DNA of 37,918 bases from Candidatus Moranbacteria bacterium RIFCSPLOWO2_12_FULL_48_12. Lineage in GTDB: Bacteria > Patescibacteriota > Minisyncoccia > Moranbacterales > UBA1568. The stretch is from contig MFSB01000006.1 of assembly GCA_001784735.1 (NCBI GenBank), forward strand, positions 1-37,918. The letters run 5' to 3'. The notes under the pieces are model-generated. The model was not told the origin of the DNA and ran no database searches. It worked only from the letters and a program-made list of their open reading frames with translations. Position 1 is the first letter of the stretch. Each line of letters opens with the position of its first letter. This document shows, piece by piece, positions 18,984-31,968 of this stretch. The position numbers were made by a program, and so were the translations under genes.

Positions 18984-19054
18984 AGCGGGATACGAGAATC
19001 GAACTCGCGTCCCTAGCTTGGGAAGCTAGTGTACTACCATTGTACTAATCCCGC
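18984..19054 (-). tRNA. tRNA-Gly(CCC)
   Basis: GCGGGAT TA GTAC AATGGTA GTAC A CTAGC TTCCCAA GCTAG GGAC GCGAG TTCGATT CTCGT ATCCCGC T; CCA not encoded. Confidence 0.95.
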
Positions 19055-19066
19055 TTATTAATGTCT

Positions 19067-19164
19067 CTTGGGAAGTTTACCCGCCTTTGGCGGGCTAGTG
19101 TACCACCATTGCCTGCCCGCCCGAAGTCCCGATACATCGGGACAAAGGAGGGTACTAATCCCGC
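19067..19164 (-). pseudogene. relic 5' half of tRNA-Gly(CCC) with two hairpin insertions
   Basis: Removing 19076-19094 and 19112-19152 leaves a 38-nt copy of the neighbouring tRNA 5' part with one mismatch. Confidence 0.85.
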
Positions 19165-19246
19165 AACCTATACATATAAAAGCTTTTCAAAAAATAGTAT
19201 AGCATACTGCTGTTTTCTTCATAAAAACTCCGGCTACACAGACAAG

Positions 19247-19356
19247 CCCCAGTTACATATCAGGGAAAATTCTTAGTAATGACACGTAAAACCCAGGAGA
19301 CGACTACGTCTTCTGATATTTTTTAAGGGTAGCTGTTCCTAGGATATGTAACGGGG
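19247..19356. mobile_element. 110-bp inverted-repeat-bounded MITE/PATE-like element
   Basis: CCCC(A)GTTACATATC / GATATGTAACGGGG, followed by TAAA. Confidence 0.7.
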
Positions 19357-19435
19357 TAAACGTACATCAACCACCTTTTCAAACTGCTCTCCACCTGGTA
19401 CACTAGGAAAGTATTTAATTTTTTATCTCTTGTCC

Positions 19436-20845
19436 ATGCCTCCATTCTTTACGAAGATACGTATCGTACTCATCGTTCTTTTGATTCTCATTGTTACAGG
19501 AGGGTTTTATTTTTTTTCTTACGCCAAAACGCATAAAACAGAACTCGCTATAGGCTCTCTCAATCTTTTCCAGAAAGTCTCCCGGCTCCTTCCGCTCACT
19601 CCGGATACCAAAAAAGAAATCGAAGTAGTCAATACCCTCGTCGAGACTCTTACCAGAAAGGATGACCAGGTCCATGTTTTTCTGGTACTTTTGCAAAATA
19701 GCGATGAGCTCAGACCCGGCGGCGGATTCTTGGGCCAATATGCCCTCATCAAGGTAAAAAATGGCGAGGTCATATCGACCTTCGTGGAAGACGCCAACCT
19801 CCTGGATCAGCGTATCGTGGCCGATATCCCTACTCCTTATCCGTTTGTCCGCAAACTGCAGTTGAAAAAATGGAAATTCCGCGATTCGAATTTTTCTCCC
19901 GACTTCCCGACCAATGCCGAGAAGGCACAATATTTTTATCGTCTGGCTGGCGGTTATGAAAAATTCGACGGCGTCATCGCAGTCAATTCTCTCACCTTCA
20001 ACAACATCCTCGCCTTGACCGGACCGATCCAGATCCCCGGAGATTCCAATATCTACACTAGTGCCGACGGCGCATACAAGCTGGAAGATCGCGTCGAAAG
20101 AGTCTATCTCGGAGAAGATGTCCCAGCTGAGCTGAAACAGAATCGCAAGCTGATTATGAAAAGGATCGCCGCCGAGATTATGAGGCGCGTCGCCACCGTT
20201 TCCAACATCCCAAAACTGGCTGAATTTACCCAAAAAGAGCTCCGGAATAAAGATATTATGCTTTATTTCAAAGACCCCGCCTTGCAATCGCTCGTGGAAA
20301 GCGTCCACTGGGACGGGAGCGTTGCTGAGGATTGGATCAATGATTACGTGATGCTCGTTGATGCCAATATGGGGGCACTCAAGACAGACCATTATATCAG
20401 ACGCTCACTCGACTACACGGTTGATTTCACCGGTGAAAAACCGATAGCTACCATTGTTTATACCTACAGAAACACCGCCACTCACGGGGATTGGCGCACC
20501 AGCGACTACCACACCTATCTGCGCGCTTACGTGCCGAAAGGGTCGAAATTCCTCGAGCGAAAAATGATTAATGTCGTGACGACCAAAGAAGCCTTCAATA
20601 AGACGTATTTTGACGGATTCGTGGATGTGGAAATCGGGCAGAGCGATGTCAACACTACGCTCACCTATGAGCTCCCGGACACCATCACCCCTGAAAATTA
20701 TCGTCTCCTCATCCAGAAACAGTCCGGCGTGGGCACCCTCCCGGTTACCGTCCATCTCAAAACATTAGGCAAGGAATACATCCAGAACGCTGACCTTCTC
20801 AAGGATCTCAATTTTTCTATCCAAACGGTAGAAGGGAAGAAATAA
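19436..20845 (+). CDS. DUF4012-domain membrane-anchored protein
   Basis: N-terminal TM; LVLLQNSDELRPGGGFLG, FRDSNFSPDFPTNA, DGVIAVN, YLRAYVPKGS, YRLLIQKQSG. TTG 19430 is an alternative start. Confidence 0.88.
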   Translation: MPPFFTKIRIVLIVLLILIVTGGFYFFSYAKTHKTELAIGSLNLFQKVSRLLPLTPDTKKEIEVVNTLVETLTRKDDQVHVFLVLLQNSDELRPGGGFLGQYALIKVKNGEVISTFVEDANLLDQRIVADIPTPYPFVRKLQLKKWKFRDSNFSPDFPTNAEKAQYFYRLAGGYEKFDGVIAVNSLTFNNILALTGPIQIPGDSNIYTSADGAYKLEDRVERVYLGEDVPAELKQNRKLIMKRIAAEIMRRVATVSNIPKLAEFTQKELRNKDIMLYFKDPALQSLVESVHWDGSVAEDWINDYVMLVDANMGALKTDHYIRRSLDYTVDFTGEKPIATIVYTYRNTATHGDWRTSDYHTYLRAYVPKGSKFLERKMINVVTTKEAFNKTYFDGFVDVEIGQSDVNTTLTYELPDTITPENYRLLIQKQSGVGTLPVTVHLKTLGKEYIQNADLLKDLNFSIQTVEGKK

Positions 20846-20846
20846 A

Positions 20847-20945
20847 TCCAGCACCTTTACCACAGGATATTAAACCCTGCGGGGAAGGTTTGTATTTCCA
20901 TTCATCCCCGTGGCAAGACCACGGAGTATTCTGGAAGGTGCTGGA
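20847..20945. mobile_element. 99-bp inverted-repeat-bounded element upstream of thrS
   Basis: TAAA|TCCAGCACCTT ... AAGGTGCTGGA|TAAA; internal hairpin CCGTGG-caaga-CCACGG. Confidence 0.7.
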
Positions 20946-21002
20946 TAAATCATCTTGCGCCTTGTCATAATCGCCGATTAATTCTATCCTGTAATCATTA
21001 CT

Positions 21003-22238
21003 ATGCCAACACTTGATCCTTCAGAAGAAGTAAGCAATGACCACAAGCGCCTTGGCCGCGAGCTGGATCTTTTCGTGTTTTCCGATCTCGTGGGAAGCGG
21101 GCTGCCGCTCTGGACCCCCAAGGGGACGCTCCTCAGAAATCTCTTGGATGATTTCGTTTGGGAGCTTCGGAAAAAATATAACTACCAGCAGGTAGAAATC
21201 CCCCACATTACCAAAAAGGATTTGTATGAAATCAGCGGGCACTGGGATAAATTCAAAGATGATATTTTCAAAATCACTACTCGCGAAGGACATGAGCTCG
21301 CTATGAAGCCGATGAATTGCCCGCACCACACCCAGATCTATGCACGCAAACCGGTGAGTTACCGCGAATTGCCAGTACGTTATGCCAACACGACCATGTG
21401 CTACCGGGACGAGCAGACTGGGGAACTGAATGGGCTTTCACGAACGCGATCCATCACCCAAGACGATGCCCATGTTTTCTGCCGCGAACCGCAGGTCAAA
21501 GAAGAATTTCTGAAAATCTGGGATATTATCGAAACATTTTACAAGACATTCGGTTTTGCGTTGGAAATCCGCTTATCGTCTCATGATCCAGAACACCCGG
21601 AAAAATTCCTCGGCGACAAAGAAAAATGGAAACGCGCGGAAGACATCCTCCGCGACGTGACAAAAGAAAAGGGCACACAGACATTCGACGGAGTCGGCGA
21701 GGCGGCCTTCTACGGACCCAAACTCGATTTCATGGCCAAAGACAGCCTCGGCCGGGAATGGCAAGTGGCCACTATCCAGCTGGATATGAATATGCCGGAG
21801 CGCTTTGATCTCACCTGCATTAACGAAAAAGGAGAGAAGGAGCGCATTGTTATGATCCATGCCGCTATTATGGGGTCTATTGAAAGGTTCCTTTCAATTA
21901 TCATCGAGCATCTGAACGGGGCTTTCCCAGTTTGGCTGGCGCCAGTCCAGGTCATTGTCTTACCTATCGGAGAAAAACACCACGACTATGCCAGAGAAGT
22001 AACGGAACTGCTCAAAAAAAACGCTCTCCGCGCAGAACTCAACCAAGACAATGAGTCGCTCGGCAAACGCATCCGTAATGCCAAGGTGCAAAAAATCCCC
22101 TATCTCATGGTCATCGGAGACAAAGAGGTAGAAGCGAAGACTGTCTCATTAGAACACCGCAGCAAGGGCTCGCTCGGGGTGCAGACGATCGAACGGTGCA
22201 TCGAGATTCTCACAGCGGCCGTCTCTTCCAAAAAGTAA
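21003..22238 (+). CDS. thrS: threonine--tRNA ligase, short form (catalytic and anticodon-binding domains only)
   Basis: DHKRLGRELDLF begins at residue 13; KPMNCP, QDDAH, AAFYGPKLD, HAAIMGSIERF, FPVWLAPVQV. Confidence 0.96.
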   Translation: MPTLDPSEEVSNDHKRLGRELDLFVFSDLVGSGLPLWTPKGTLLRNLLDDFVWELRKKYNYQQVEIPHITKKDLYEISGHWDKFKDDIFKITTREGHELAMKPMNCPHHTQIYARKPVSYRELPVRYANTTMCYRDEQTGELNGLSRTRSITQDDAHVFCREPQVKEEFLKIWDIIETFYKTFGFALEIRLSSHDPEHPEKFLGDKEKWKRAEDILRDVTKEKGTQTFDGVGEAAFYGPKLDFMAKDSLGREWQVATIQLDMNMPERFDLTCINEKGEKERIVMIHAAIMGSIERFLSIIIEHLNGAFPVWLAPVQVIVLPIGEKHHDYAREVTELLKKNALRAELNQDNESLGKRIRNAKVQKIPYLMVIGDKEVEAKTVSLEHRSKGSLGVQTIERCIEILTAAVSSKK

Positions 22239-22241
22239 TTG

Positions 22242-22275
22242 AAAAAACCATCTCGCCGCGGCGAGATGGTTTTTT
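22242..22275. terminator. bidirectional intrinsic terminator
   Basis: AAAAAACCATCTCGCC-gc-GGCGAGATGGTTTTTT between convergent genes. Confidence 0.85.
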
Positions 22276-22292
22276 GTTGTTGCACTCTTTCC

Positions 22293-22598
22293 TTACTGAT
22301 TCGCCAGACTGCGGGAAAGCGCGAGCAACGCTTCAAAGTCATCATTTCCTGCTACCTTATTTTTCTTCTCATAACCGCAACTGCTGCAACGATGGATTAT
22401 CACATCGTTCTTTCCTCCATGTGAAAACACCACCGGCTCCATCATCCCGCCACACGAGGCTGCTCGATCCCCCGGAAACATATCCACATGCTTGCTCCAC
22501 AGACACTTCGGGCAATGGTTCGTATAGCCATCCCCACTGATCACACTCGCGCACCGTTCGCACCGGAAATCTTCTTTCTTTCTTTGAAAAGTTTTCAC
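22293..22598 (-). CDS. RNHCP-domain Zn-binding protein
   Basis: FRCERC..YTNHCPKCLWSKHVD..PGDRAASCGGMMEP..HRCSSCG; GTG start at 22598 is inferred. Confidence 0.88.
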   Translation of the reverse strand: MKTFQRKKEDFRCERCASVISGDGYTNHCPKCLWSKHVDMFPGDRAASCGGMMEPVVFSHGGKNDVIIHRCSSCGYEKKNKVAGNDDFEALLALSRSLANQ

Positions 22599-22662
22599 AA
22601 ACGCGTTCCTGTTACAAGATGGATTAATTATAACAAACGAAAGCCTTTTTTGACACAACTAG

Positions 22663-23925
22663 CTACCTCCGTTTTCCCAAGATGCTATTGATGGCATCCT
22701 CATCCTGACAGGAATATTTATTGCTGGCGGAATAAAAACGTTTTTTCGGCCCCTCGCAGCCGCCGTTGTCCCGGTAGAGCGTCGCCAGCATCGGCATAAG
22801 AAATCCCGTATTCCGCGAGGTGAAGTAGCCATGGAGACGCCGGAGCGTCGCCTCCCGCGTGTTCTTGTCCATTCGCGTGAAGACGCTCATATCATCTCCC
22901 AACTTGCCGCTCCAATCGAAATGCACGAATACATCATTCGCTTTGGCAGAGTAGTTTGGGTGCCAAAGGAGCGCCCAGCACCAGTCCCCCGGTTTCTGCC
23001 ACCAGCGCGAAAAACACGGTCCGTCTTCGATACTTCCGTCTTCTTGCAGTCCGACGCCGCCCTCGATATAGTCAAAGAGCCGCAGATATTTCTCGTCCAC
23101 AATGTCATTGGTCTGCGCCCCGATCAAGATTTTCATTCCCAAAAAATCGGCATATTCGCGCATACCGATAATCACCTCCGGCATGACGCTTTGCGAAAGG
23201 TCTCCCGCATCCTGATAAAATACCTGTCCGAAGAGAAAGCTCTGAATTCCCATGTCCATGGCTTGTTCCGCTATATACTGTACATATTTGCGATATTCCG
23301 CCCGTTCCAGAGACGGTTTGCAGGTATGTTCGCCCCAAAAATTCTTGCTCCCCGGACGGCACATGTCATCGAAATCAAAATCCCGCTCTTCGGCCGGGTA
23401 GTAATAATTGGCCGTCGTATCGATAGCTTCCGCGATGAACATCCCGTAAACGGTGTTGGGTTTGGTAACTTTCTTTTGGATTTTCCCCGCGAGCTTGAAA
23501 TCCGGCGGCCGGAGCCACGTCTCGAGCGCCCGATGGAGATAATAACACTGGGAGCGGTTGACAAGCGCGATGGAACTGTTGATATCACCGCCATAGCCCG
23601 AAAGAAAACCATCTGCCACGCAACCCTGTTTTTTCATCCGTTCTAGCGAGGGCGGTGGCGGCACAAGCATGACAGGAGAAACTCCTTCCGTTTTTCCTTC
23701 CTGCGAAGCGCCGCCTTCATCAAAGGCCGGCTGTTCATCCACCCAATCGGTGAGCGGAGGAACCGGCATTTCTTCCGGTGGCGCGATAGCCGCTTCTCTG
23801 TTTTTTTCGGAAAATGGCGCAAAGAAAAAAAGCCCGCCGACAACAAAAATCACGACAGGAATGGAAAAGAAAAGATGTTTTTTGCGAAGCAGCTTCGGCC
23901 GCTCCGCCGGATAGAGTGGTAACAT
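22663..23925 (-). CDS. membrane-anchored, Cys/aromatic-rich hypothetical protein
   Basis: N-terminal TM, Pro-rich linker and a globular domain of about 330 aa; ATG 23925 preferred over the 23943 start. Confidence 0.8.
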   Translation of the reverse strand: MLPLYPAERPKLLRKKHLFFSIPVVIFVVGGLFFFAPFSEKNREAAIAPPEEMPVPPLTDWVDEQPAFDEGGASQEGKTEGVSPVMLVPPPPSLERMKKQGCVADGFLSGYGGDINSSIALVNRSQCYYLHRALETWLRPPDFKLAGKIQKKVTKPNTVYGMFIAEAIDTTANYYYPAEERDFDFDDMCRPGSKNFWGEHTCKPSLERAEYRKYVQYIAEQAMDMGIQSFLFGQVFYQDAGDLSQSVMPEVIIGMREYADFLGMKILIGAQTNDIVDEKYLRLFDYIEGGVGLQEDGSIEDGPCFSRWWQKPGDWCWALLWHPNYSAKANDVFVHFDWSGKLGDDMSVFTRMDKNTREATLRRLHGYFTSRNTGFLMPMLATLYRDNGGCEGPKKRFYSASNKYSCQDEDAINSILGKRR

Positions 23926-23983
23926 AATATGTGCAAAGAGCACATACAGTATACACCTTTCTGGAGTAAACCTCGAGAGTAAG

Positions 23984-24082
23984 CCCCGTTAGATAACTTC
24001 CAGAGGTATTAGACATTGTTCTCGAATGAAAGATACGCTCCTCACAGACAGCTCGACGAAACCATAAGATTCTCTAACGGGG
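23984..24082. mobile_element. 99-bp inverted-repeat-bounded element
   Basis: TAAG|CCCCGTTAGA ... TCTAACGGGG|TAAA. Confidence 0.72.
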
Positions 24083-24176
24083 TAAACAAAAAACATCACG
24101 AAAGTTGTTTTATTTTTCGTATATGAGCAAAACAAAGCGTCTTAAGTTCTATGAGGTATACCAAGATGTAGCAAAC

Positions 24177-24824: not shown

Positions 24825-24871
24825 ATAGGTATTGTAACTTTCTTACCTTTTTCTGTTTATTTCTATTACTT

Positions 24872-24921
24872 TGAGCGAGAGACCCTCCTCCGCTACGCTA
24901 CGGACGGGCAGGCGGGAATCG
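24872..24921 (-). pseudogene. relic tRNA-Gly 3' end with a 30-nt hairpin insertion
   Basis: CGATTCCCG[24883-24912]TCTCTCGCTCA on the minus strand. Confidence 0.75.
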
Positions 24922-24931
24922 CTATTACTTA

Positions 24932-25011
24932 GAGCGGGGATACAAGAATCTCCGCCTGCACCCCGCCAAGGCGGGAAGCATTGCGGGCAGGGAACCCGCG
25001 TATCTCGCTTG
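24932..25011 (-). pseudogene. relic tRNA-Gly 3' half with a 41-nt hairpin insertion in the T-loop
   Basis: CAAGCGAGATACGCGGGTTC[24951-24991]GATTCTTGTATCCCCGCTC on the minus strand. Confidence 0.78.
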
Positions 25012-25029
25012 TTCCAAAAACTGCAAAAT

Positions 25030-26190
25030 TTATAATGTAATCAGCGGGTGGGCGCTGGTGATTGTTTTCACTACGACGTTGTATTTCGCCGTGAAGGCCC
25101 GAGTAGCGACTCGTTTATCTTTCCATTTTATTTCATACGCGGAAATTTTTTCTCCCTCTTTGACGACCAGGTCAACTTCTGATCCGGTCCGCGACCGCCA
25201 AAAATAAAGACTTTTTTTCTGTCCAGCCAGCATATTTTGCTTGGCAAATTCCGCTACTACCCAATTTTCCCAAAGATGCCCAATATCCGACCGCAACGGA
25301 TTGGAGGAAAACTCATTCAAAATAGCATTGCGCACCCCCGTATCCCAAAAATATATCTTGTGGCTCTTGGAAATTTCTTTCCTCAGATTGGTGCTGAAGG
25401 CCGGTAAACGGAAAATAACAAAGGTCTGTTCCAACAAATCCAAATAGCGCTCCACAGTAGCTCTGGCCATTCTCAAGCTGGAAGCTAATTCATTGGTCGA
25501 TACTTCGGATCCGATTTGATGCGCCAGTAAAGCCAGAAGTTTCTTGATCAATTCTGGAGTTTTTATCAGCCCCATTTGCAAAACATCCTTGAAGAGATAG
25601 TCGGAAATGAGATTCAAAAGATATTGCTTTTTACCGCTTTCCAAAATCACCTCCGGATAACTTCCAAAAACAACGGCCTGCATCAAAAGCTCAGATATCT
25701 GATGGGAAAAATCCCTTTCTATTTGGTCGTCAGTATAAACATCGGCATACCACTCCTTGGAACGTACTATTTCCCCGAACTGCAATGGCGTAACGAATAA
25801 TTTTTCATTTCGCCCAGTCAAGCTTTCCGCCGACTGATTCAGCAAATCAAGGCTGGATGATCCTAAAAGAATAATTTTTGAAGACACATCTGAGTCATAC
25901 CACCCTTTTACGATTGAGCCTATCTGAGGCAAGCGCTGCGCTTCATCGATTATCAGATAATCCGGATTGCCAAAACTCTGCATCGCTTCTTTCGGAGACA
26001 ACGAGGCAGCAGAAATTATTTTTTGTTTATCGATATCTACGTCAAAATTCAAGAAAAGACTCTTTTTTGTCTTCAGCGCGTACTTCACCAGAGTGGTTTT
26101 TCCCACCTGTCTCGCTCCGATAATAATCATTATTTTTGGGGAGATAAGGTAACTCATGAACTTATTCTCCGCTTTTCTAGCTATATACAT
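25030..26190 (-). CDS. AAA_14-type ATPase with DUF4143 / C-terminal PD-(D/E)xK-like domain
   Basis: GARQVGKT, LIIDEAQ, LLGSS, ESLTGR, KIYFWDTGVRN, LWENWV, FWRSRTGSEVDLV..AYEIKW. Confidence 0.92.
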   Translation of the reverse strand: MYIARKAENKFMSYLISPKIMIIIGARQVGKTTLVKYALKTKKSLFLNFDVDIDKQKIISAASLSPKEAMQSFGNPDYLIIDEAQRLPQIGSIVKGWYDSDVSSKIILLGSSSLDLLNQSAESLTGRNEKLFVTPLQFGEIVRSKEWYADVYTDDQIERDFSHQISELLMQAVVFGSYPEVILESGKKQYLLNLISDYLFKDVLQMGLIKTPELIKKLLALLAHQIGSEVSTNELASSLRMARATVERYLDLLEQTFVIFRLPAFSTNLRKEISKSHKIYFWDTGVRNAILNEFSSNPLRSDIGHLWENWVVAEFAKQNMLAGQKKSLYFWRSRTGSEVDLVVKEGEKISAYEIKWKDKRVATRAFTAKYNVVVKTITSAHPLITL

Positions 26191-26260
26191 ACTTTAATCA
26201 TACAAATAACCGTACATTTTGTCAAGTGAACATTACAAAATGTAGTCTTCTTTAGTTAGA

Positions 26261-26297
26261 TGAGAGAGACGGGAATCGAACCCGCGTATCTAGCTTG
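26261..26297 (-). pseudogene. relic tRNA-Gly 3' half
   Basis: CAAGCTAGATACGCGGGTTCGATTCCCGTCTCTCTCA: anticodon 3' strand, intact T arm and an acceptor strand with a 2-nt deletion. Confidence 0.85.
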
Positions 26298-26523
26298 TCC
26301 CGAAAACTTCAAAATTTTAATTTTAGCCGTTTTTGTGACCCCGAGTCTTTGAGCGGGTAAACGGAATCGAACCGTCATCCACAGCTTGGAAGGCTGTTAT
26401 AATAACCATTATACGATACCCGCAATTGCCATCTTTTACCTCGTTCCCATTGTATACTACATAAATTTTGAAGCTCGGAATCCTCGGAAATCTAGTTTTG
26501 CTTTCGCTCAAAGATTTTCGGGA
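26298..26523. mobile_element. 226-bp inverted-repeat-bounded segment carrying tRNA-Gly(TCC)
   Basis: Left arm TCCCGAAAACTTCAAAATTT (26298-26317); right arm AAATTTTGAAG (26463-26473) plus TTTTCGGGA (26515-26523). The ends coincide with the two relic tRNA halves. Confidence 0.65.
26352..26423 (-). tRNA. tRNA-Gly(TCC)
   Basis: GCGGGTA TC GTAT AATGGTTA TTAT A ACAGC CTTCCAA GCTGT GGAT GACGG TTCGATT CCGTT TACCCGC T. Confidence 0.93.
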
Positions 26524-26699
26524 GAAGCTTGCCCGCACCGCATACGCGGAGCGTTTCGGGCGGGGCTGGCGTACTACCCGCCTCGACTCGCGACGCTCAT
26601 CGACGCGAGGCCGGCCATTGCCTGCCCGCCACACTGCGTAAGCTGTAGGTGGGTACTATTTACCCGTCCGTAACCAGAATGGTGGAGGAGGGCTCTCGC
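26524..26699 (-). pseudogene. relic tRNA-Gly 5' half with four hairpin insertions
   Basis: Removing 26528-26564, 26577-26614, 26621-26653 and 26659-26692 leaves GCGAGAGTAGTACAATGGTAGTACGCCAGCCTTC. Confidence 0.82.
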
Positions 26700-26714
26700 T
26701 TATTTTTCAGGTAT

Positions 26715-27449
26715 CTACTTCTGATCGACGCCCCGCAAACCGGTGAAAGGATCCTTGTAACGTTGTTCTTTCGGTACGCCGAGATCAATTAACATTTTTT
26801 CCATGGCTTCGACAAACGGGAGTGAACCGACGAGATAGTACAACTTTCCAGGAATATCGTCAATATATTTGGTAATCATCGGCACACAGATATACCCGCG
26901 TTCATCGTTTATCGGCTGACAGACCTCGTCTGATTGACTGAGTACCGTGATACAGCGAAAATGCGGCAGAGGCAGAGGCTTGATCTCTTCACAGAAAGCG
27001 GCATCTTTGAGAAAGCGATTGGAATACAAAAGGGTAAAATCACGGGTACTGCCTTCATGCGCCGCTTGCTTCAAAATACTTCTCACCGGGGTGATGCCGA
27101 TACCACCGACCAGAAACACCACCGGGCGCAGATCTCCTTTGGGTACGGTGAAAAATCCTACGGCTTTGGTAATGGTGATCGTATCGCCTGGCTGCATCTG
27201 CCAAAATGTCTGCTTGAAACCGCTCATTCCACGGCGCATAGCGAAATGCATTTCTGATTCGAAGGGAGAGGAAGCAATAGAGAAAGAGCGCACCGGCCCT
27301 TTGGGATCCGGAGCGACGAGTTTGGGTAGTGTCAAAGCCACATACTGGCCAGCCTGAAAAATATATCCCTCTGGTTTGTCAAAAATAAAAAGGCGGGTGC
27401 CATCGGCTACCTCGCGTGTTCCTTTGAGAGTGAGAGTGTATCCTTGCAT
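26715..27449 (-). CDS. FAD/NAD(P)-dependent oxidoreductase (ferredoxin-NADP reductase-like)
   Basis: FQAGQY, RSFSIASSP, GGIGITPVRS, LLYSNR. ATG 27449 is chosen because the longer start runs through a repeat. Confidence 0.9.
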   Translation of the reverse strand: MQGYTLTLKGTREVADGTRLFIFDKPEGYIFQAGQYVALTLPKLVAPDPKGPVRSFSIASSPFESEMHFAMRRGMSGFKQTFWQMQPGDTITITKAVGFFTVPKGDLRPVVFLVGGIGITPVRSILKQAAHEGSTRDFTLLYSNRFLKDAAFCEEIKPLPLPHFRCITVLSQSDEVCQPINDERGYICVPMITKYIDDIPGKLYYLVGSLPFVEAMEKMLIDLGVPKEQRYKDPFTGLRGVDQK

Positions 27450-27460
27450 ACTTTTTTTCT

Positions 27461-27538
27461 CCTCCTCCCCTGCGAAGGGGAGGGTAGGGAGGGGTGGTTT
27501 ACGATTCACAATTCATAATTCCTGATTCTTGATTCTAT
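27461..27538. repeat. REP-like purine-rich hairpin plus 5 ATTCNNN heptamers
   Basis: CCTCCCCT-gcga-AGGGGAGG-GTAGGGAGGGGT; attcaca attcata attcctg attcttg attctat (27504-27538). Confidence 0.65.
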
Positions 27539-27613
27539 TTTCTCCTTCCCTAGTGTACTTTTTTTCCTGTCTTTCAGTATAGCCAGAGAAAATCCGACTG
27601 TCAAAAAGTATCC

Positions 27614-28633
27614 CTACACGATATCACGGAGGATATTCTCGTACTCCCCCAGCTCGAGGAGCATCATGAGCACTTTGGCCAACTGGTCGCTATCGTGCCG
27701 GATAAAAGCCCGCGTATGAGCAATGGCATCGGCCTTATCCAAACGCACCCGCTCCGCACTCAAAAGATTGGTTTCCAATACACGATACTGGCGCTTCTTG
27801 CGAGCCGTTCTCTCAAAAGGCACGAGCTCGCCTTCCTGCTTATATTTTTTCATCAACCGCTGGCTCGGCTTGCCGATATTGTTGGTAACGAAATCGACCC
27901 TTCCTCTCCCTAGATATTTTTCCGTGGCATCAATGTAGTCATCGAGCGTAAACCCCTCTGTCTGACCTTTTTTATTTACCAGATTGCAGTTGTACACGAC
28001 TTTCGCGTGAGACTTTCGGATAGCCTCTGGGATACCATCCACCAAAAGATTCGGCACGATAGCGCAATAGTGACTTCCCGGACCGATCACAATCAGATCG
28101 GCAGCCAGAATTTTTTCAATCGCTCGCGGATTGGCTTTTGCCTTGGGGAAGAGATATATCTTGGCTACTCCCTGCTTGCTGATTTCAAAATTATGATTGA
28201 TTTCACTTTCTCCCTGAAGCAGAGTCTTACTCTTCAGTTGGAGAAAAAGCTTCGTATCCGCATTGGTCACGGGGATCACTTCGCCTTTGACATTCAAAAT
28301 TTGGGCGGCTTCAGCGACGCCAAGAGAAAAATTGCCAGTAATCTTTTCCAAGGCGGAAAGAAAAAGGTTGCCGAAACTATGGCCCGATAAGCCACCATTC
28401 TCAAATCGATAATTCATAAGCTTCCGAAGCATCTCTGAAGAATCTGACAGCGCCACCAGACACTGGCGCACATCGCCCGGCGGCAAAACTCCGAGTTCGT
28501 CACGCAGAACCCCCGTCGAGCCGCCGTCATCGGCCATAGAAACGATGGCCGACAGTTCGATCGGATACTTTTTCAGCCCGGACAAAAGCATGAAACTCCC
28601 CGTCCCCCCGCCGATAGTCACTACTTTTTTCAT
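27614..28633 (-). CDS. yvcK: gluconeogenesis factor YvcK/CofD-like (UPF0052)
   Basis: MKKVVTIGGGTG, MADDGGSTGVLRDELGVLPPGDVRQCL, GHSFGNL, ADLIVIGPGS, RHDSDQLA. Confidence 0.92.
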   Translation of the reverse strand: MKKVVTIGGGTGSFMLLSGLKKYPIELSAIVSMADDGGSTGVLRDELGVLPPGDVRQCLVALSDSSEMLRKLMNYRFENGGLSGHSFGNLFLSALEKITGNFSLGVAEAAQILNVKGEVIPVTNADTKLFLQLKSKTLLQGESEINHNFEISKQGVAKIYLFPKAKANPRAIEKILAADLIVIGPGSHYCAIVPNLLVDGIPEAIRKSHAKVVYNCNLVNKKGQTEGFTLDDYIDATEKYLGRGRVDFVTNNIGKPSQRLMKKYKQEGELVPFERTARKKRQYRVLETNLLSAERVRLDKADAIAHTRAFIRHDSDQLAKVLMMLLELGEYENILRDIV

Positions 28634-28635
28634 AA
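28603..28635. repeat. 33-bp direct repeat, copy 1 (yvcK start)
   Basis: TCCCCCCGCCGATAGTCACTACTTTTTTCATAA is identical to 31058-31090. Confidence 0.95.
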
Positions 28636-28750
28636 GATTCAAAATTATACGATATTGAAACCATAGCATGCTCAAAGTATTCTTTCAAGAAAAAAGCCTA
28701 GTCCGCAATGCGTCTAGGCTACCTGTCCATCCGGTCAGGCTCGGTATTTT

Positions 28751-30823
28751 TTACAGCGTCCGAGAAAACGCGAGCAGGTCTTCGAATGAATTGAAGCTCA
28801 CTTTCTGCCCCAGCTCCTCCTTGACAATAGACGCCACCTTTGCGAGAGCCCGCTCGAGGTGTGGAACTTCTTTTTCCGGCGGCAATACTTTCGCCATCTG
28901 CTCAAGCTCTTCCCACGAGTAACGCCCGCGATTTACCCACCACGGAATAGTAGATGTCACGCCATAGGCCCAGTGCCGGCGGCATGCCTCTTCCAGAACA
29001 GTCCGCATCGCATCCACCTTCTTGTTTGAGACGACACGATACCGGAAGTCCCGATTGAGGTGTAATGGTTTAGTGTCTGGAAGCACCTCTATCCACTGGC
29101 CGTTTTTTCCTTCTGTTTCATCCCGACTGAGGCGCGTAACCCGATACCGACCGGCTTTGATAGTGAGGATATCTCTCCCGTACTTCTCGAGAAAAGCGAT
29201 CCATTTGAGCCCCCAATGTAGCGGCTCGCCCGGAAGTCCGATGAGAAGAAAGACGTGTGTCTGAATACCGGCCTTCCTCAAATTGGACAGAATAATACCG
29301 TAATTCTCGGGCTTATTCCAGGTCTTTTCCGCTTGTGCCAAAGTCTCCGGTGCTAAAGATTCGAAACCGACCATAACATCGCCACAGCCCGCTTCGGCCA
29401 GTGCATCGCATACATCCTGTTTTACTAGGGTATTGTCTGCCGTCATATAGCAGTCCCATGTCGCGGAAAGGCCTCTCTCCTTGAGTCTTTTTCCTAATGC
29501 AATTTGGCGAGAAACCGGAAACATCGCACTGACAATCTCAAAACGAGACGCGCCTATGGCCAATATGTGCTCCGCCATTCGACGTGAGCTCATTTCACGT
29601 GGCTTACCGTGAAATGTAGCGCTTCCGGCCTCGATTGCACAAAAATCGCAGCGGTCTTTCGTGAGACAATTTGACGCCGGGTAAAGAGAGGGAACAAAAT
29701 CGGGCGACCACTGACGCACGCTACCGTCAAAAACCGGCGTTGGCAAGGTTTCGAATGGAATCGGCAAGGATACAGGATTAACGATTACTCTGTTGTCGCC
29801 ACTTCTCCACACTGTCCCCGGTGCGGATGATGGTGTCAAGGTTTCAGTTAAAACCTCCAGTGCACGGAAGCCTTCTCCCCAAACTATGGCATCACAGTAG
29901 TCGAACATCTCGGCGAATTGCGGAAGCAAATAGGCACCAAGCGGCCGCGCCCAAAAGTTGCCACCCATGACCACGAGTGTATTCGGCAACGTCTCTTTTA
30001 TCATCGCAGCGAGGATGCAACCTTGAACGAATTGCCTTTCGTCAGCGATGCTGATCCCATACAAATGAGGACGGACGTTTTTCGCAAATGGAACTTCCGC
30101 GTGAGCGAAGTACGAATACCATAGATGCTCTTTGCGATTTCTTATCGCATCGAGCATTTTCTCGATACTGCCGTCATAGTAATGCGACACGTATGTGACG
30201 TTATTGCGCTCCACGACGAATTTGTCTTGCGTTATGATACCGCTTGAAACGCGCTCGAATGTCATCCGTGCATCGTAAAGTGCCTTGATATCGCTTTTCG
30301 AGTCGCGGATAGTTGCCAGCGCCTTGTCGATAGTCTCTCCGCCGTGCTCGCGTAAAACGTATTTTAATCCGGCGATGTGCCCATAGTGCTGGGTCACTTG
30401 GTGACCACGCTCTTGGAGATACGCCGCGAGCATCGAGATGCCGGCAGGCAAATGCCATACCGACGATACCGGCGGATAGTTGAGTATCACTCGACGTTTA
30501 GGAGTTGCTATGAGAGTGACGAGCGCAAACTCGCTTTTCACAACGTCATCGTTGAAAGTGATCGTGATGACCGGTTTAGGCGTAGTCGGTACTGTCAGCC
30601 AGCCCATCTCACTCCGATAATTAACGGTAACAGGCTCAGAAACGGTCAGACTTTTGCCTTCGGGGATGGAAACCATCCGCCCGTCAGCAAAATGCACGTA
30701 CGTTACCTCATGGCGATTCGACGTGTCACGCTGGTGAACAGTCACCGCGTACGAAACATCAATGTGGAAGAGATGTAATGCACACAGAATTGCGAAAAAA
30801 CAGAGAAGCTTGTTCGGTTTCAT
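28751..30823 (-). CDS. B12-binding-domain radical SAM protein with an N-terminal signal-peptide-like extension
   Basis: VILNYPP..PAGISMLAAYLQERGH, VVMGG, DAIVWGEG (B12-binding pattern); CLTKDRCDFC; LAEAGC..VMVGFES; LIGLPGE; SD AGGAGG 4 nt before the ATG. Confidence 0.88.
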   Translation of the reverse strand: MKPNKLLCFFAILCALHLFHIDVSYAVTVHQRDTSNRHEVTYVHFADGRMVSIPEGKSLTVSEPVTVNYRSEMGWLTVPTTPKPVITITFNDDVVKSEFALVTLIATPKRRVILNYPPVSSVWHLPAGISMLAAYLQERGHQVTQHYGHIAGLKYVLREHGGETIDKALATIRDSKSDIKALYDARMTFERVSSGIITQDKFVVERNNVTYVSHYYDGSIEKMLDAIRNRKEHLWYSYFAHAEVPFAKNVRPHLYGISIADERQFVQGCILAAMIKETLPNTLVVMGGNFWARPLGAYLLPQFAEMFDYCDAIVWGEGFRALEVLTETLTPSSAPGTVWRSGDNRVIVNPVSLPIPFETLPTPVFDGSVRQWSPDFVPSLYPASNCLTKDRCDFCAIEAGSATFHGKPREMSSRRMAEHILAIGASRFEIVSAMFPVSRQIALGKRLKERGLSATWDCYMTADNTLVKQDVCDALAEAGCGDVMVGFESLAPETLAQAEKTWNKPENYGIILSNLRKAGIQTHVFLLIGLPGEPLHWGLKWIAFLEKYGRDILTIKAGRYRVTRLSRDETEGKNGQWIEVLPDTKPLHLNRDFRYRVVSNKKVDAMRTVLEEACRRHWAYGVTSTIPWWVNRGRYSWEELEQMAKVLPPEKEVPHLERALAKVASIVKEELGQKVSFNSFEDLLAFSRTL

Positions 30824-31057
30824 GAGTCCTCCTACAAGGGAAGTTGGTGAGTGATATTGTTAAAGAGCCTTATACAAGCCTAAACTTGTCTGTCGCTCTT
30901 TGGAAAAAATCCTGATACGACTTGCATTTATAACACAAGCCCGCTAAAAATACAATAGTTTACAAAAAAGCTGGCTTCAAGCCAGTCATATAACATTCAA
31001 AAGTTTCATAGGGTTAACCGTTTGCATCAACGGGGTGACAAATCAAACAAATGGTTT

Positions 31058-31090
31058 TCCCCCCGCCGATAGTCACTACTTTTTTCATAA
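31058..31090. repeat. 33-bp direct repeat, copy 2 (orphan first 10 codons of yvcK)
   Basis: Encodes MKKVVTIGGG; its ATG overlaps the NUDIX stop codon (ATGA). Confidence 0.95.
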
Positions 31091-31519
31091 AAATGATTTT
31101 TTTCTAAAGTACGCCCTGATTGCTTCTTCATAACCATTTACAAAGTCATAGTGTTCCATATCTGCCTCTATAATCCAGGCATATTCTGTATGTTCATGAC
31201 TCAAAGTGACCTCGCCGGAGATATAAGAACAATCAAACCCAGCCAGAAACACCCACTCCCCATTCGGAAACTGGCGTCTGAAAACGTGGAACACTTCTCC
31301 CACGATAATTTCTATCGAGCCGCATTCTTCTCTTACTTCCCGCAAAAGAACGTCTATAAGCGGGGTTCTCTCTTCACTTTCCGTAATTCTTCCGCCGGGG
31401 ATTTCCCATTTTTTCCCACTCGGATATTTTTCAGATGCGAACTCCCTCAAGATAAGCAACTTGCCATCCTTTGCAATAAAAGCCTTGAGACCAACAAAAA
31501 AGAGCTTGTTATCTTCCAT
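31085..31519 (-). CDS. NUDIX hydrolase
   Basis: WEIPGGRITESEERTPLIDVLLREVREECG Nudix box; LSHEHTEYAWI. ATG 31519 (or 31528) is preferred because the longer ORF runs through tRNA relics. Confidence 0.9.
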   Translation of the reverse strand: MEDNKLFFVGLKAFIAKDGKLLILREFASEKYPSGKKWEIPGGRITESEERTPLIDVLLREVREECGSIEIIVGEVFHVFRRQFPNGEWVFLAGFDCSYISGEVTLSHEHTEYAWIIEADMEHYDFVNGYEEAIRAYFRKKSFL

Positions 31520-31541
31520 AGCTTGCATGAGAGAATTATTC

Positions 31542-31588
31542 TGTCGGAGCACCCGGAATCCCCGCCTGCCGTCGGGCAGGGAACCGGA
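31542..31588 (-). pseudogene. relic tRNA-Pro-like 3' end with a 20-nt hairpin insertion in the T-loop
   Basis: TCCGGTTC[31561-31580]GATTCCGGGTGCTCCGACA on the minus strand. Confidence 0.72.
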
Positions 31589-31597
31589 ACTAAAATT

Positions 31598-31617
31598 TGG
31601 TCGGGGTGCTGGGAATC
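31598..31617 (-). pseudogene. duplicate of the tRNA-Pro(TGG) 3' end, with CCA
   Basis: GATTCCCAGCACCCCGACCA; 18 nt are identical to the intact gene's 3' end. Confidence 0.8.
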
Positions 31618-31715
31618 CCCTTCGGGCCTGGGCTATCCTGCGAGACAGGTTAGCCCTTCTCTTCCCAACGCAAGTGAAGCAGTTCACTTGCTTCACCCGC
31701 CTTCACTTCGTTTTG

Positions 31716-31786
31716 TCGGGGTGCTGGGAATCGAACCCAGTCAACATGCTCCCAAAGCATGCGTACTACCGGTATACGACACCCCG
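31716..31786 (-). tRNA. tRNA-Pro(TGG)
   Basis: CGGGGTG TC GTAT ACCGGTA GTAC G CATGC TTTGGGA GCATG TTGA CTGGG TTCGATT CCCAG CACCCCG A. Confidence 0.94.
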
Positions 31787-31809
31787 AAAATTTAATACGA
31801 AACTATGTG

Positions 31810-31876
31810 TTCCTAAACTTGCGTATTTACCCGCCATAGTTCTTACGGCGGCGGGCTGCCACTATACTACTCTCCG
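31810..31876 (-). pseudogene. degenerate tRNA-Pro-like 5' half with a 30-nt hairpin insertion
   Basis: CGGAGAGTAGTATAGTGGCAG[31826-31855]TACGCAAGTTTAGGAA on the minus strand. Confidence 0.65.
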
Positions 31877-31898
31877 GATTGAGATGCGACGGGGCAAG

Positions 31899-31968
31899 AA
31901 GCATGCGTACTATCCGCCTCGACTCGCTTCGCTTGCCGACGCGAGGCGGGCCGGTATACGACACCCCG
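31899..31968 (-). pseudogene. exact copy of the tRNA-Pro(TGG) 5' 32 nt with a 38-nt hairpin insertion in the D-loop
   Basis: Removing 31913-31950 gives a sequence identical to 31755-31786. Confidence 0.88.

What the first reader, a model, noticed from the sequence alone, without database searches (positions are those of the whole stretch)
19076..31950. Family of 19-41 nt hairpin insertions that repeatedly hit the same tRNA positions without target duplication
Seen: eleven insertions can be excised cleanly from tRNA relics (19076-19094, 19112-19152, 24883-24912, 24951-24991, 26528-26564, 26577-26614, 26621-26653, 26659-26692, 31561-31580, 31826-31855, 31913-31950). Nine read YYTR-CCCG...GG(G) on one strand, starting TTTA, CCTG or CTTG; two are CCGCCTCGACTCGC...GCGAGGC type. 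Equivalent sites are used twice by different sequences: CCATTG^TACTA, GTACTA^CC and T-loop GAATC^GAACC. Four sit within a single 34-nt relic, and the intact tRNAs have none. Known: tetranucleotide plus hairpin without target duplication is characteristic of HUH-mobilised REP and IS200/IS605 DNA. Inference: an ultra-short insertion system with tRNA-like (possibly folded single-stranded) target preference, whose enzyme is encoded elsewhere.
Basis: partly seen in the sequence, partly recalled or inferred. Interest (0 to 1): 0.82.

Follow-up and report, generated by a model that had tools for sequence, protein, structure and literature searches.

The report
Tiny hairpin repeats crowding tRNA-gene remnants
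A small groundwater bacterium carries a family of 15-45-base hairpin-forming DNA repeats that have slotted, base-exact, into left-over pieces of replaced tRNA genes far more often than anywhere else, showing how selfish DNA reshapes tRNA loci in these tiny genomes.

Summary
All 11 inserts excise to the base, and the rejoined flanks align without gaps to intact tRNAs. There is no target duplication. None of the 44 intact tRNAs carries an insert.

The inserts belong to a genus-wide, REP-like family: a 4-nt tag (CCTG, TTTA or CTTG) followed by CCCGNC...GGNGGG. The tagged pattern gives 345 hits against 18 control hits in 50 genomes.

The family is not tRNA-specific. This genome has 94 loci, and 46 lie in my crude ORF calls, read through in frame. 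It is, however, six times denser beside tRNA genes. Other hairpins show no such excess. Three relatives show the same bias. Sub-families keep to fixed tRNA positions.

The "relics" are halves of tRNA genes split by incoming replacement alleles. Elsewhere in this genome three such alleles travel with small GIY-YIG nuclease genes.

The HUH link is not supported. RAYT-like genes exist but carry other hairpins, and 37 of 50 genomes show no Y1 match. The enzyme is unknown. I rate this a new variant of a known kind.

The parts
18983..19054 (-). Intact tRNA-Gly(CCC), no insert
   Evidence: ARAGORN; Rfam tRNA 69.5 bits
19067..19164 (-). Copy of positions 1-39 of tRNA-Gly(CCC), 12 nt upstream of the intact gene, carrying two inserts
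   Evidence: Read; alignments. The same arrangement occurs in 11 of 22 species examined.
19076..19094 (+). Insert 1: 19 nt, TTTA tag plus a 6-bp stem, at the anticodon stem/loop junction (30/31 or 31/32)
   Evidence: 24/25 across the junction. Fold -7.3 kcal/mol, z -3.85. An orthologous hairpin sits at this site in all 11 relic-bearing species.
19112..19152 (+). Insert 2: 41 nt, CCTG tag, at D-stem/D-loop 13/14
   Evidence: 27/28 across the junction. The site is empty in G019, G006, G042, G021, G060 and G058/G061. It is filled by other family members in G005, G016 and G020.
19236..19362 (.). About 127-nt element with 14-bp terminal inverted repeats and TTTA/CTTG at its edges. It is a larger relative or neighbour of the hairpins.
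   Evidence: Read; fold; similar segments on 9 other contigs; no Rfam family
24872..24922 (-). 3'-end fragment of a tRNA-Gly allele (T-loop to acceptor end) carrying insert 3
   Evidence: 19/19 to an intact tRNA-Gly(UCC) of a relative
24883..24912 (-). Insert 3: 30 nt, CCTG tag, in the T-stem 3' strand (64/65)
   Evidence: The fold is weak, z -0.29.
24932..25011 (-). 3' half of another tRNA-Gly allele carrying insert 4
   Evidence: Read: 22/24
24951..24991 (-). Insert 4: 41 nt, CCTG tag, T-loop 56/57. A 14-nt CCCGCC hairpin is nested in its loop.
26261..26297 (-). 3' part (36 to the end) of the old, split tRNA-Gly(UCC) gene, without inserts
26298..26523 (-). 226-nt cassette with 9-bp terminal inverted repeats. 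It carries the intact tRNA-Gly(UCC) (26351-26423) and sits inside the anticodon of the old gene.
   Evidence: The terminal motif stands at 26298(+) and 26523(-). The cassette is single-copy in this genome.
26524..26699 (-). 5' part (1-35) of the old tRNA-Gly(UCC) gene carrying four inserts
   Evidence: Three of the four rejoined junctions are identical to the intact allele of relative G012.
26528..26564 (+). Insert 5: 37 nt, CTTG tag, anticodon stem/loop junction
   Evidence: 20/20
26577..26614 (+). Insert 6: 38 nt, CCGCCTCGACTCGC type, D-loop GG^TA (19/20)
   Evidence: 27/27. The same type sits at the same tRNA position at 31913, at C8 37829 and in G060.
26621..26653 (+). Insert 7: 33 nt, CCTG tag, D-stem/loop 13/14
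   Evidence: 28/28
26659..26692 (+). Insert 8: 34 nt, TTTA tag, between acceptor stem and position 8
   Evidence: 23/23
31543..31590 (-). 3' part of a tRNA-Pro allele carrying insert 9
   Evidence: 29/30 to the intact tRNA-Pro(UGG) of G014
31561..31580 (-). Insert 9: 20 nt, CCTGCC...GGCAGG+CGGG type, T-loop 56/57
   Evidence: An identical 20-mer sits at the same T-loop site of a tRNA-Arg fragment, C24 4487-4506.
31598..31617 (-). 3' end fragment (55-72) of tRNA-Pro(UGG), no insert
   Evidence: 18/18
31715..31786 (-). Intact tRNA-Pro(UGG), no insert
31818..31876 (-). 5' part of a second tRNA allele carrying insert 10
   Evidence: 22/26, the weakest of the 11
31826..31855 (+). Insert 10: 30 nt, TTTA tag, D-loop/D-stem 22/23
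31899..31968 (-). Copy of positions 1-33 of tRNA-Pro(UGG) carrying insert 11
   Evidence: 30/30 to the intact gene
31913..31950 (+). Insert 11: 38 nt, CCGCCTCGACTCGC type, D-loop GG^TA (19/20)

Best explanation
The inserts are copies of a genus-wide family of very short, tagged, GC-rich stem-loop repeats. They are REP-like "nano-MITEs" of 15-45 nt: a 4-nt tag, then CCCGNC...GGNGGG. They enter DNA base-exactly and without target duplication.

Shown:
- Each sub-family lands at its own short sequence context.
- Those contexts coincide with the conserved loop and stem-junction motifs of tRNA genes: D-loop GG^TA, T-loop TTC^GA, the D-stem/loop junction and the anticodon stem/loop junction.

Inferred: copies survive only where they do no harm. 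That means displaced tRNA-gene halves, some intergenic DNA, and permissive linkers of large proteins when their length is a multiple of three.

The displaced halves come from a second process, tRNA-gene replacement. An incoming allele inserts into or beside the resident gene and splits it. In this window the incoming allele is a 226-nt cassette lying in the anticodon. At three other loci of this genome it travels with a small GIY-YIG nuclease gene. The result is 5' halves upstream and 3' halves downstream of the new gene.

Inferred mechanism: insertion goes through a single-stranded stem-loop intermediate handled by a nuclease or transposase acting in trans. The enzyme is not identified. The RAYT-like Y1 genes are unlikely candidates. 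The small GIY-YIG genes are an open candidate.
For: Exact excision:
- 11 of 11 junctions align gap-free to intact tRNAs, with ambiguity of at most 2 nt.

Family status:
- The CCCGNC...GGNGGG pattern gives 127 hits against 33 in the reversed sequence.
- The tagged pattern gives 28 hits against 1 control hit here, and 345 against 18 across 50 genomes, with matches in 42 of 50.

Filled and empty alleles at orthologous relic sites in 11 species:
- The 13/14 site is filled in 4 and empty in 7.
- The 19/20 site is filled in 1.
- The 24/25 site is filled in 4.
- One species has a second hairpin nested in the loop of the first.

tRNA bias:
- 17 of 94 loci lie in 12.7 kb of non-coding DNA within 300 nt of tRNA genes. 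31 lie in the other 139.8 kb of non-coding DNA.
- Control hairpins split 18 against 192, which is the same density in both compartments.
- The bias is replicated in G020, G023 and G005.

Site and sub-family pairing:
- The CCGCCTCGACTCGC type is flanked TA^C in 5 of 5 placed copies. These are 4 tRNA D-loops and 1 non-tRNA site.
- The CCTGCC type follows GAATC or GGTTC in 7 of 8 copies.

Selection in genes:
- 9 of 9 tagged copies in Pfam-identified genes have lengths that are multiples of 3 (18-39 nt). In relics only 3 of 11 do.

Replacement process:
- The old tRNA-Gly(UCC) is complete but split by the cassette.
- GIY-YIG ORFs sit with an intact tRNA between or beside fragments of the same tRNA at C47, C18 and C8.
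- Small GIY-YIG ORFs lie within 150 nt of a tRNA in G023 (4 of 6) and G020 (2 of 2), but in G005 0 of 4.
Against: - No enzyme is tied to the family, and no autonomous element with these ends was found.
- No empty allele was seen within the population in four other runs. Those runs are held as contigs, which drop rare variants, so recent mobility is not shown.
- The gene map behind the density figures is crude: greedy ORFs of at least 80 aa, with some spurious calls.
- About a quarter of the untagged pattern hits are expected by chance (33 against 127).
- Sites within tRNAs are homologous. Repeated use of "the same site" could therefore come from recombination between tRNA-derived repeats instead of from targeting.
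- The hairpin at 30/31 is present in all 11 relic-bearing species. It may have been inherited once, so it counts as one event, not eleven.
- In LeuRS the surrounding segment differs from relatives as a whole, so that copy is not a clean insertion.
Confidence: 0.6

Rival explanations
1. An HUH (Y1/RAYT or IS200/IS605-like) enzyme encoded elsewhere mobilises the hairpins as single strands. It recognises folded, tRNA-like single-stranded DNA as its target.
For: - A tag plus an imperfect hairpin, and insertion without target duplication, fit what is known of HUH substrates. That is established knowledge of IS608 and REP/RAYT, supported by passages of PMC3733652.
- Two RAYT-like genes exist in this genome.
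- Genomes with a Y1 match carry more tagged hairpins: mean 11.3 against 5.4, Mann-Whitney p 0.012, not corrected for kinship.
- Inserts sit mostly at helix-loop junctions of the cloverleaf. One hairpin is nested in the loop of another.
Against: - Each of the RAYT-like genes inspected, 2 here and 4 in relatives, is flanked by its own different hairpin and never by a CCCG-type one.
- 37 of 50 genomes show no Y1 match. These include G005 (34 hairpins, 87% complete) and G020 (24 hairpins, 92% complete).
- The matches to the RAYT model are far below its cut-off: 29.9 and 23.3 bits against 80.
- Non-tRNA copies of two sub-families share the same short flanks as the tRNA copies. This argues for sequence recognition over fold recognition.
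Confidence: 0.15
2. The hairpins do not transpose on their own. They spread among tRNA-derived repeats by recombination, gene conversion or template switching, using the conserved tRNA loop sequences as short homology. Alternatively they are carried and left behind by the GIY-YIG/tRNA replacement cassettes as ends or repair scars.
For: - Identical 20-mers sit at the same T-loop site of a tRNA-Pro fragment and a tRNA-Arg fragment.
- Several replacement junctions lie inside a truncated hairpin: G058/G061 at 30/31 and C23 43215 at the T-loop.
- The CCGCCTCGACTCGC type lies within 130 nt of a GIY-YIG ORF in 4 of 9 hits in relatives. It also lies near GIY-YIG ORFs at C8 and C37 here.
- Hairpin counts track GIY-YIG counts across 50 genomes: Spearman 0.56, p 2e-5, not corrected for kinship.
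- 5 of 10 small GIY-YIG ORFs are flanked by 16-26-bp inverted repeats. One of these begins TTTACCCCG, much like the tagged hairpins.
Against: - Copies inside unrelated protein genes and intergenic DNA have no tRNA homology to recombine through.
- Different family members occupy the same orthologous site in different species.
- The window's three loci have no GIY-YIG gene.
- tRNA genes, GIY-YIG ORFs and hairpins all co-localise, so pairwise proximity may be indirect.
Confidence: 0.17
3. The interrupted copies are functional. The hairpins are removed or tolerated at the RNA level, as small tRNA introns or expansion hairpins. Alternatively the half-copy acts as a structured 5' leader of the tRNA precursor.
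For: - Some positions (37/38, 56/57, 30/31) are also intron positions in archaeal tRNAs. This is recalled, not tested.
- The tRNA-Gly(CCC) half-copy lies between a conserved TACAATGG promoter-like box and the intact tRNA. It would therefore be transcribed as a leader. It persists in 11 of 22 species.
- One orthologous hairpin shows a change on both sides of the stem, from C-G to T-A, in G006.
Against: - Removing all candidate hairpins in all combinations produced no new complete tRNA. This held for this genome (2,781 constructs) and for 565 kb of relatives' loci (2,034 constructs).
- Every hairpin-bearing copy is truncated or split.
- An intact paralogue always stands beside it.
Confidence: 0.05

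Closest known systems
REP elements and REPtrons (REP plus RAYT) of Proteobacteria and others
   Same: These are short imperfect palindromes carrying a conserved tetranucleotide tag at one end, present as many dispersed copies. Some copies lie inside ORFs, notably in replication and repair genes and in tRNA synthetases. Some families lack a dedicated transposase (passages of PMC3733652). The hosts here match that pattern: LigA, GyrB, DnaX, RecG, ValRS, GluRS, a class II synthetase, TrmD and LeuRS.
   Different: The tags here are CCTG, TTTA or CTTG, not GTAG or CGTC. Units are as short as 15-19 nt and occur singly. No cognate RAYT flanks them. A third of the tagged copies lie in tRNA-gene fragments, at positions specific to each sub-family. 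I found no description of that in four literature searches.
IS200/IS605 single-strand transposition (IS608, ISDra2)
   Same: Insertion leaves no target duplication and occurs next to a short specific sequence. The ends form hairpins. This is established knowledge, recalled.
   Different: No transposase gene lies inside the unit. There is one hairpin instead of two distinct ends. TnpB is absent. Y1 genes are missing from most genomes that hold the repeats.
Rickettsia palindromic elements (RPE)
   Same: These are palindromic repeats inserted in frame into protein genes that stay open. They are mentioned in PMC3733652.
   Different: RPEs are several times longer (recalled). No tRNA-remnant bias is known for them.
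Mobile GC-rich palindromes of fungal mitochondria (yeast GC clusters, Allomyces double-hairpin elements)
   Same: These are very short GC-rich hairpins scattered in a more AT-rich compact genome. They are found in intergenic DNA, in variable parts of genes and next to mobile endonuclease ORFs.
   Different: They occur in organelles, not in a bacterium. Their ends and targets differ.
Free-standing GIY-YIG homing endonuclease SegB in the phage T4 tRNA gene cluster
   Same: A GIY-YIG nuclease gene sits among tRNA genes and drives preferential inheritance of its tRNA region (abstract of PMC2330249). This is the nearest known parallel to the GIY-YIG plus tRNA modules that leave the remnants here.
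   Different: The ORFs here are chromosomal and of only 88-117 codons (open frames), so they probably lack a separate DNA-binding domain. Cleavage has not been tested. They leave half-genes of the displaced allele.

Membership tests
REP / REPtron (RAYT-mobilised) | Short imperfect palindrome in many dispersed copies | tested here: met
   94 loci here against about 25 expected. 345 against 18 in the genus. Folds.
REP / REPtron (RAYT-mobilised) | Conserved GTAG or CGTC tetranucleotide at one end | tested here: not met
   A tag is present, but it is CCTG, TTTA or CTTG.
REP / REPtron (RAYT-mobilised) | A RAYT gene flanked by the same REPs | tested here: not met
   Six RAYT-like loci were inspected. 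All are flanked by other hairpins. Y1 matches occur in 13 of 50 genomes.
IS200/IS605 | Y1 transposase (with or without TnpB) encoded inside the element | tested here: not met
   Units are 15-45 nt. No long element with these ends was found. There is no TnpB match.
IS200/IS605 | Insertion without target duplication, 3' of a fixed tetra- or pentanucleotide | tested here: inconclusive
   There is no duplication. Flanks are conserved only within sub-families and only weakly.
Classical MITE | Terminal inverted repeats plus a target-site duplication | tested here: not met
   Terminal 6-bp inverted repeats are present. No duplication is present.
tRNA intron (archaeal-type or group I) | Removal restores a complete, foldable tRNA gene | tested here: not met
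   No new complete tRNA appeared after in-silico excision.
Intrinsic terminator | GC hairpin followed by a T run, placed at gene ends | tested here: not met
   None of the 11 is followed by a T run. Copies lie inside ORFs. A few untagged CAGT-flanked CCCGCC hairpins followed by T runs elsewhere probably are terminators.
Free-standing homing endonuclease cassette (origin of the remnants) | Nuclease gene next to the gene it helps replace, with remains of the displaced allele beside it | tested here: met
   Seen at C47, C18 and C8, in G023 at 4 of 6 and in G020 at 2 of 2. It is not met in the window itself, which has no GIY-YIG gene on C6.
Free-standing homing endonuclease cassette (origin of the remnants) | Site-specific cleavage of the allele that lacks the cassette | not testable with these tools
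   This needs an enzyme assay.

The most novel reading that the evidence does not exclude
In this reading, tRNA loci of this candidate-phyla-radiation genus are the arena of a linked selfish system. Small GIY-YIG nuclease genes travel with replacement tRNA alleles and split the resident gene. The tagged nano-hairpins are their non-autonomous partners. They are either collapsed ends of GIY-YIG units mobilised in trans by these structure-specific nucleases, or elements that home to the loops of cloverleaf-forming single-stranded tRNA DNA. By riddling the displaced halves they stop those halves from recombining with, or mis-pairing with, the new gene. This would be a new nuclease class for REP-like repeats and a new driver of tRNA gene turnover.
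Probability: 0.2. Interest if true: 0.85.

Novelty: new variant of a known kind. Interest (0 to 1): 0.62.

Why it matters
REP-like repeats are widespread, yet how they move and choose sites is still poorly understood, and some families have no known enzyme. This genus offers many base-exact insertions with known empty sites, because intact tRNAs serve as the reference. The units are extremely short, and each sub-family has its own site rule. That makes target rules and candidate enzymes directly testable.

The work also shows that tRNA genes in these 1-Mb genomes turn over by allele replacement that leaves half-genes behind. At three loci of this genome the replacement sits next to a small GIY-YIG nuclease gene. 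This matters for tRNA annotation in reduced genomes. It also bears on how selfish DNA persists in genomes with very little spare sequence.

Tried and rejected
Ideas tested and dropped:
- Assembly artefact. Rejected, because contigs of four other runs match with 0 differences over two of the three loci and relatives share the arrangement.
- Introns of live tRNAs. Rejected by in-silico excision.
- A general "neutral DNA sink". Rejected, because other hairpin families are not enriched beside tRNAs.
- An autonomous parent element with CCCG ends. None was found in this genome.
- The 226-nt cassette as a repeated family. It is single-copy here.
- LeuRS as a clean empty-site example in a gene. It failed, because the whole segment differs from relatives.
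- The roughly 127-nt element as a known RNA. No Rfam family fits and the fold z-score is only -1.51.

Gaps and blanks:
- No RNA holder was listed among the public runs, so nothing can be said on expression.
- No empty alleles or insert-sized omissions were seen in the four laid runs. Those are contigs, which drop rare variants.
- Part of the tRNA-Pro locus (31753-31855) had no long contig.
- RT (1 match, contig C41) and tyrosine integrase (1 match, contig C23) lie far from the window and were not followed.
- Literature searches found no description of REP-like repeats in tRNA remnants or of GIY-YIG/tRNA modules in this phylum.
- For PMC3733652 I saw passages only. For PMC2330249 I saw the abstract only. 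The supplements of PMC3733652 (lists of REP-tagged ORFs) were not seen.
- I did not build a covariance model; pattern counts with reversed-sequence controls were used instead.

Full report
Setting. The window is contig C6 of a 990,630-base, 55-contig assembly. The assembly is 94.8% complete. Its LeuRS is closest (60-66%) to named Moranbacteria and Paceibacteria genomes, which places it in Patescibacteria, the candidate phyla radiation. ARAGORN finds 44 tRNAs in the genome and three in the window, all on the minus strand.

The observation. Each of the three tRNAs is accompanied by partial copies of tRNA genes interrupted by GC-rich segments. All 11 junctions align without a gap. Ten reach at least 95% identity and one reaches 22 of 26. 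Boundaries are ambiguous by at most 2 nt, and there is no flanking duplication. Three junctions of the four-insert fragment match the intact tRNA-Gly(UCC) of relative G012 at 20/20, 27/27 and 28/28. Nine of 11 fold with the 4-nt tag single-stranded and the two ends paired, although z-scores against shuffles are modest. Contigs from four other public runs reproduce two of the three loci without a single difference.

A genome-wide and genus-wide family. The pattern CCCGNC...GGNGGG (14-46 nt) occurs 127 times, against 33 in the reversed sequence. These merge into 94 loci. With the tag (YYTR) it occurs 28 times here against 1 in the control. Across the 50 species genomes of the genus it occurs 345 times against 18, in 42 of 50 genomes. 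Recognisable sub-families recur:
- a 19-nt minimal form;
- a 20-21-nt CCTGCC...GGCAGG form;
- 30-nt and 37-41-nt forms;
- the CCGCCTCGACTCGC form.

Where the copies lie. I used a crude gene map of greedy ORFs of at least 80 aa, dropping those that overlap tRNAs.
- 46 loci fall in coding DNA (0.055 per kb).
- 31 fall in other non-coding DNA (0.22 per kb).
- 17 fall in non-coding DNA within 300 nt of an intact tRNA (1.33 per kb).
- None falls in an intact tRNA.

Of 30 tagged copies, an automatic junction search places 4 in tRNA-derived sequence. Adding the window copies verified, and two read by eye (C13 9646, C49 1161), gives 11 of 30. As a control I took perfect hairpins of other sequence (stem of at least 8). 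These split 18 near tRNAs against 192 elsewhere in non-coding DNA, which is the same density in both. DNA next to tRNA genes is therefore not a general sink for repeats.

The bias recurs in relatives. Tagged hairpins within 300 nt of a tRNA number 14 of 24 in G020, 4 of 16 in G023, and 5 of the 22 listed for G005. By area, fewer than one would be expected in each.

Copies in genes. Nine tagged copies, and a few untagged ones, lie inside open frames identified by Pfam: TrmD, LigA, ValRS, GyrB, DnaX, RecG, an ABC-F-type ATPase, a class II aminoacyl-tRNA synthetase, an epimerase and GluRS. LeuRS was identified by orthology. All 11 stretches printed are read through without a stop, as peptides that begin Pro-Ala, Pro-Ser or Ala-Arg-Pro and end at or near an Ala-Gly or Gly-Gly pair. 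The nine tagged copies in Pfam-identified genes are 18, 21, 21, 21, 30, 33, 36, 36 and 39 nt long, all multiples of three. Only 3 of the 11 relic copies are. This is what purifying selection on true insertions predicts. The same host classes, replication and repair enzymes and tRNA synthetases, were reported for REPs inside genes (passages of PMC3733652). The LeuRS case is not a clean insertion, because the whole local segment differs from relatives.

Site rules. Within tRNA-derived DNA, inserts cluster at four places:
- the D-stem/loop junction (12/13-13/14);
- the D-loop after GG (19/20);
- the anticodon stem/loop junction (30/31-31/32);
- the T-loop (56/57).

Single cases occur at 7/8, 22/23, 37/38, 60/61 and 64/65-65/66. 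Sub-families keep to their own sites. The CCGCCTCGACTCGC type sits at D-loop GG^TA in tRNA-Gly, tRNA-Pro and tRNA-Gln fragments here and in G060. Its one placed non-tRNA copy (C28) has the same TA^C flank, so 5 of 5 agree. The CCTGCC type sits at T-loop TTC^GA in five fragments and after GAATC in three protein genes. This favours short sequence targets that happen to be the universally conserved tRNA loop motifs. A role for folded single strands is not excluded. One hairpin in G042 carries a second one in its loop, and insert 4 has a 14-nt member nested in its loop.

Filled and empty alleles. I compared the tRNA-Gly(CCC) locus in 22 species. Eleven have a copy of positions 1-39 lying between a conserved TACAATGG box and the intact gene. 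Eleven do not. All 11 copies carry a 15-nt hairpin plus tag at 30/31. In G058/G061 it is truncated, and in G060 it carries a CCTG tag. Other sites vary:
- 12/13-13/14 is filled in this genome, G005, G016 and G020, by different members of 16-41 nt. It is empty in the other seven.
- 19/20 is filled only in G060.
- 24/25 is filled in G021, G016 and G058/G061.

The half-copies differ between species and resemble alleles that are intact in other species. The shared 30/31 hairpin may be one inherited event. The variable sites are independent gains or losses with the same exact boundaries.

What the "relics" are. Read on the minus strand, the old tRNA-Gly(UCC) gene is complete but split.
- Positions 1-35 (26699-26524) carry four hairpins.
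- A 226-nt cassette with 9-bp terminal inverted repeats lies in the anticodon. It carries its own TACAATGG box and the intact gene.
- Positions 36 to the end (26297-26261) follow, without inserts.

A second, similar 3' junction at 24992-25040 brackets an AAA_14/DUF4143 ATPase gene. At the tRNA-Pro locus, two 5' fragments lie upstream and two 3' fragments lie downstream of the intact gene.

Elsewhere in the genome, three of about ten small GIY-YIG ORFs sit with an intact tRNA between or beside fragments of the same tRNA:
- C47: 5' fragment, GIY-YIG, tRNA-Gln(UUG), remaining part.
- C18: tRNA-Ser(CGA), GIY-YIG, then the old copy with two hairpins in its T-loop.
- C8: GIY-YIG, tRNA-Gln(CUG), then a 5'-truncated old copy with inserts at 19/20 and 37/38.

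In relatives, small GIY-YIG ORFs lie within 150 nt of a tRNA in 4 of 6 cases (G023) and 2 of 2 (G020), but in 0 of 4 in G005, where only 23 tRNAs were found. The nearest known parallel is phage T4 SegB, a GIY-YIG homing endonuclease located in a tRNA gene cluster (abstract of PMC2330249). Removing hairpins never restores a complete tRNA. The interrupted copies are therefore true remnants.

The enzyme question. Two Y1 genes are present. Their best family is the REP-associated tyrosine transposase, but far below its cut-off. Each of them, and each of four homologues in relatives, is flanked by its own hairpin of unrelated sequence, which also occurs in frame inside the gene. None is flanked by a CCCG-type hairpin. 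Y1 matches occur in 13 of 50 genomes.

Hairpin counts are higher in Y1-positive genomes (mean 11.3 against 5.4, p 0.012). They also track GIY-YIG counts (Spearman 0.56, p 2e-5). Neither figure is corrected for kinship, and both may only reflect the total load of mobile DNA. G005 (34 copies) and G020 (24 copies) have no Y1 match.

Several points make GIY-YIG a candidate worth testing, but no more than that:
- 5 of 10 small ORFs are flanked by 16-26-bp inverted repeats, against a shuffled maximum of 11-15.
- One such repeat begins TTTACCCCG.
- The CCGCCTCGACTCGC type lies within 130 nt of a GIY-YIG ORF in 4 of 9 hits in relatives.

No TnpB was found. One RT and one integrase lie elsewhere in the genome. 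No long element with CCCG ends was found.

Verdict. It is wrong or unproven on exclusivity, on the HUH enzyme and on the nature of the remnants. The best filing is a new variant of REP-like tagged palindromes: ultra-short, orphan, and living mainly in tRNA-gene debris created by allele-replacement cassettes. No paper describing this was found in the library searched.

Noticed in passing
G000 contigs C47:10985-11500, C18:1840-2310, C8:37463-37955: Small GIY-YIG ORFs (88-117 codons) sit next to an intact tRNA, with fragments of the same tRNA beside or around the pair. They look like free-standing endonuclease/tRNA replacement modules. The same adjacency occurs in G023 (4 of 6) and G020 (2 of 2).
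   Followed up: partly
window 26298-26523: A 226-nt cassette with 9-bp terminal inverted repeats and its own TACAATGG box carries the intact tRNA-Gly(UCC). It lies inside the anticodon of an older, otherwise complete tRNA-Gly(UCC) gene. It is single-copy in this genome.
   Followed up: partly
window 24992-25040 and 26262-26330, flanking 25030-26190: An AAA_14/DUF4143 ATPase gene is bracketed by direct repeats. Each repeat consists of a tRNA-Gly 3' half plus the adjacent cassette end, like the att sites of an inserted island. No integrase is present.
   Followed up: no
G000 C8:25779-26483 and C36:3121-4053; relatives L072, L075, L076: Each RAYT-like Y1 gene is flanked by a private hairpin of about 20 nt. 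At most loci the same hairpin also occurs once or twice in frame inside the gene; in the two genes of this genome it sits at homologous positions (peptides such as FGSKASK and NSGRTAVN).
   Followed up: partly
window 19236-19362; also C1 14663, C42 13339, C37 28961, C23 38010, C19, C24, C29, C18, C47: An element of about 115-127 nt has 14-15-bp terminal inverted repeats beginning CCCCGT and a conserved core. Several copies lie right beside tRNA genes or inside the D-loop of tRNA-Val fragments. No Rfam family matches it.
   Followed up: partly
G000 C31:4678-4989 and 6932-7226: Two GIY-YIG ORFs lie in sequence that I read as 23S rRNA (by eye; no rRNA search was run), each enclosed by a 21-22-bp inverted repeat, like ORF-bearing intervening sequences.
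   Followed up: no
G000 C34:14323-14606: tRNA-Tyr(GUA) is found only when introns are allowed. It has a 200-nt intron after position 37, possibly group I.
   Followed up: no
G000 C29:3148-6132: The GyrB gene carries an intein (Intein_splicing domain, residues 326-748) as well as an in-frame hairpin repeat.
   Followed up: no
G000 C5:14050-14140, C37:3890-4000, C48:4400-4450, C46:2780-2840, C43:24000-24100: Hairpins inside genes are often embedded in short tandem heptamers (GATTCMT, GGAAATT types). The 11-mers ATTCATAATTC, ATTCATGATTC and ATTCCTGATTC occur 34-44 times in the genome.
   Followed up: no
whole genome G000: The genome is unusually rich in perfect palindromes of many unrelated families. 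Stems of at least 10 bp with 3-8-nt loops number 127, against 4 in a shuffled genome. Some are 34-42 nt long and recur 10-27 times.
   Followed up: partly
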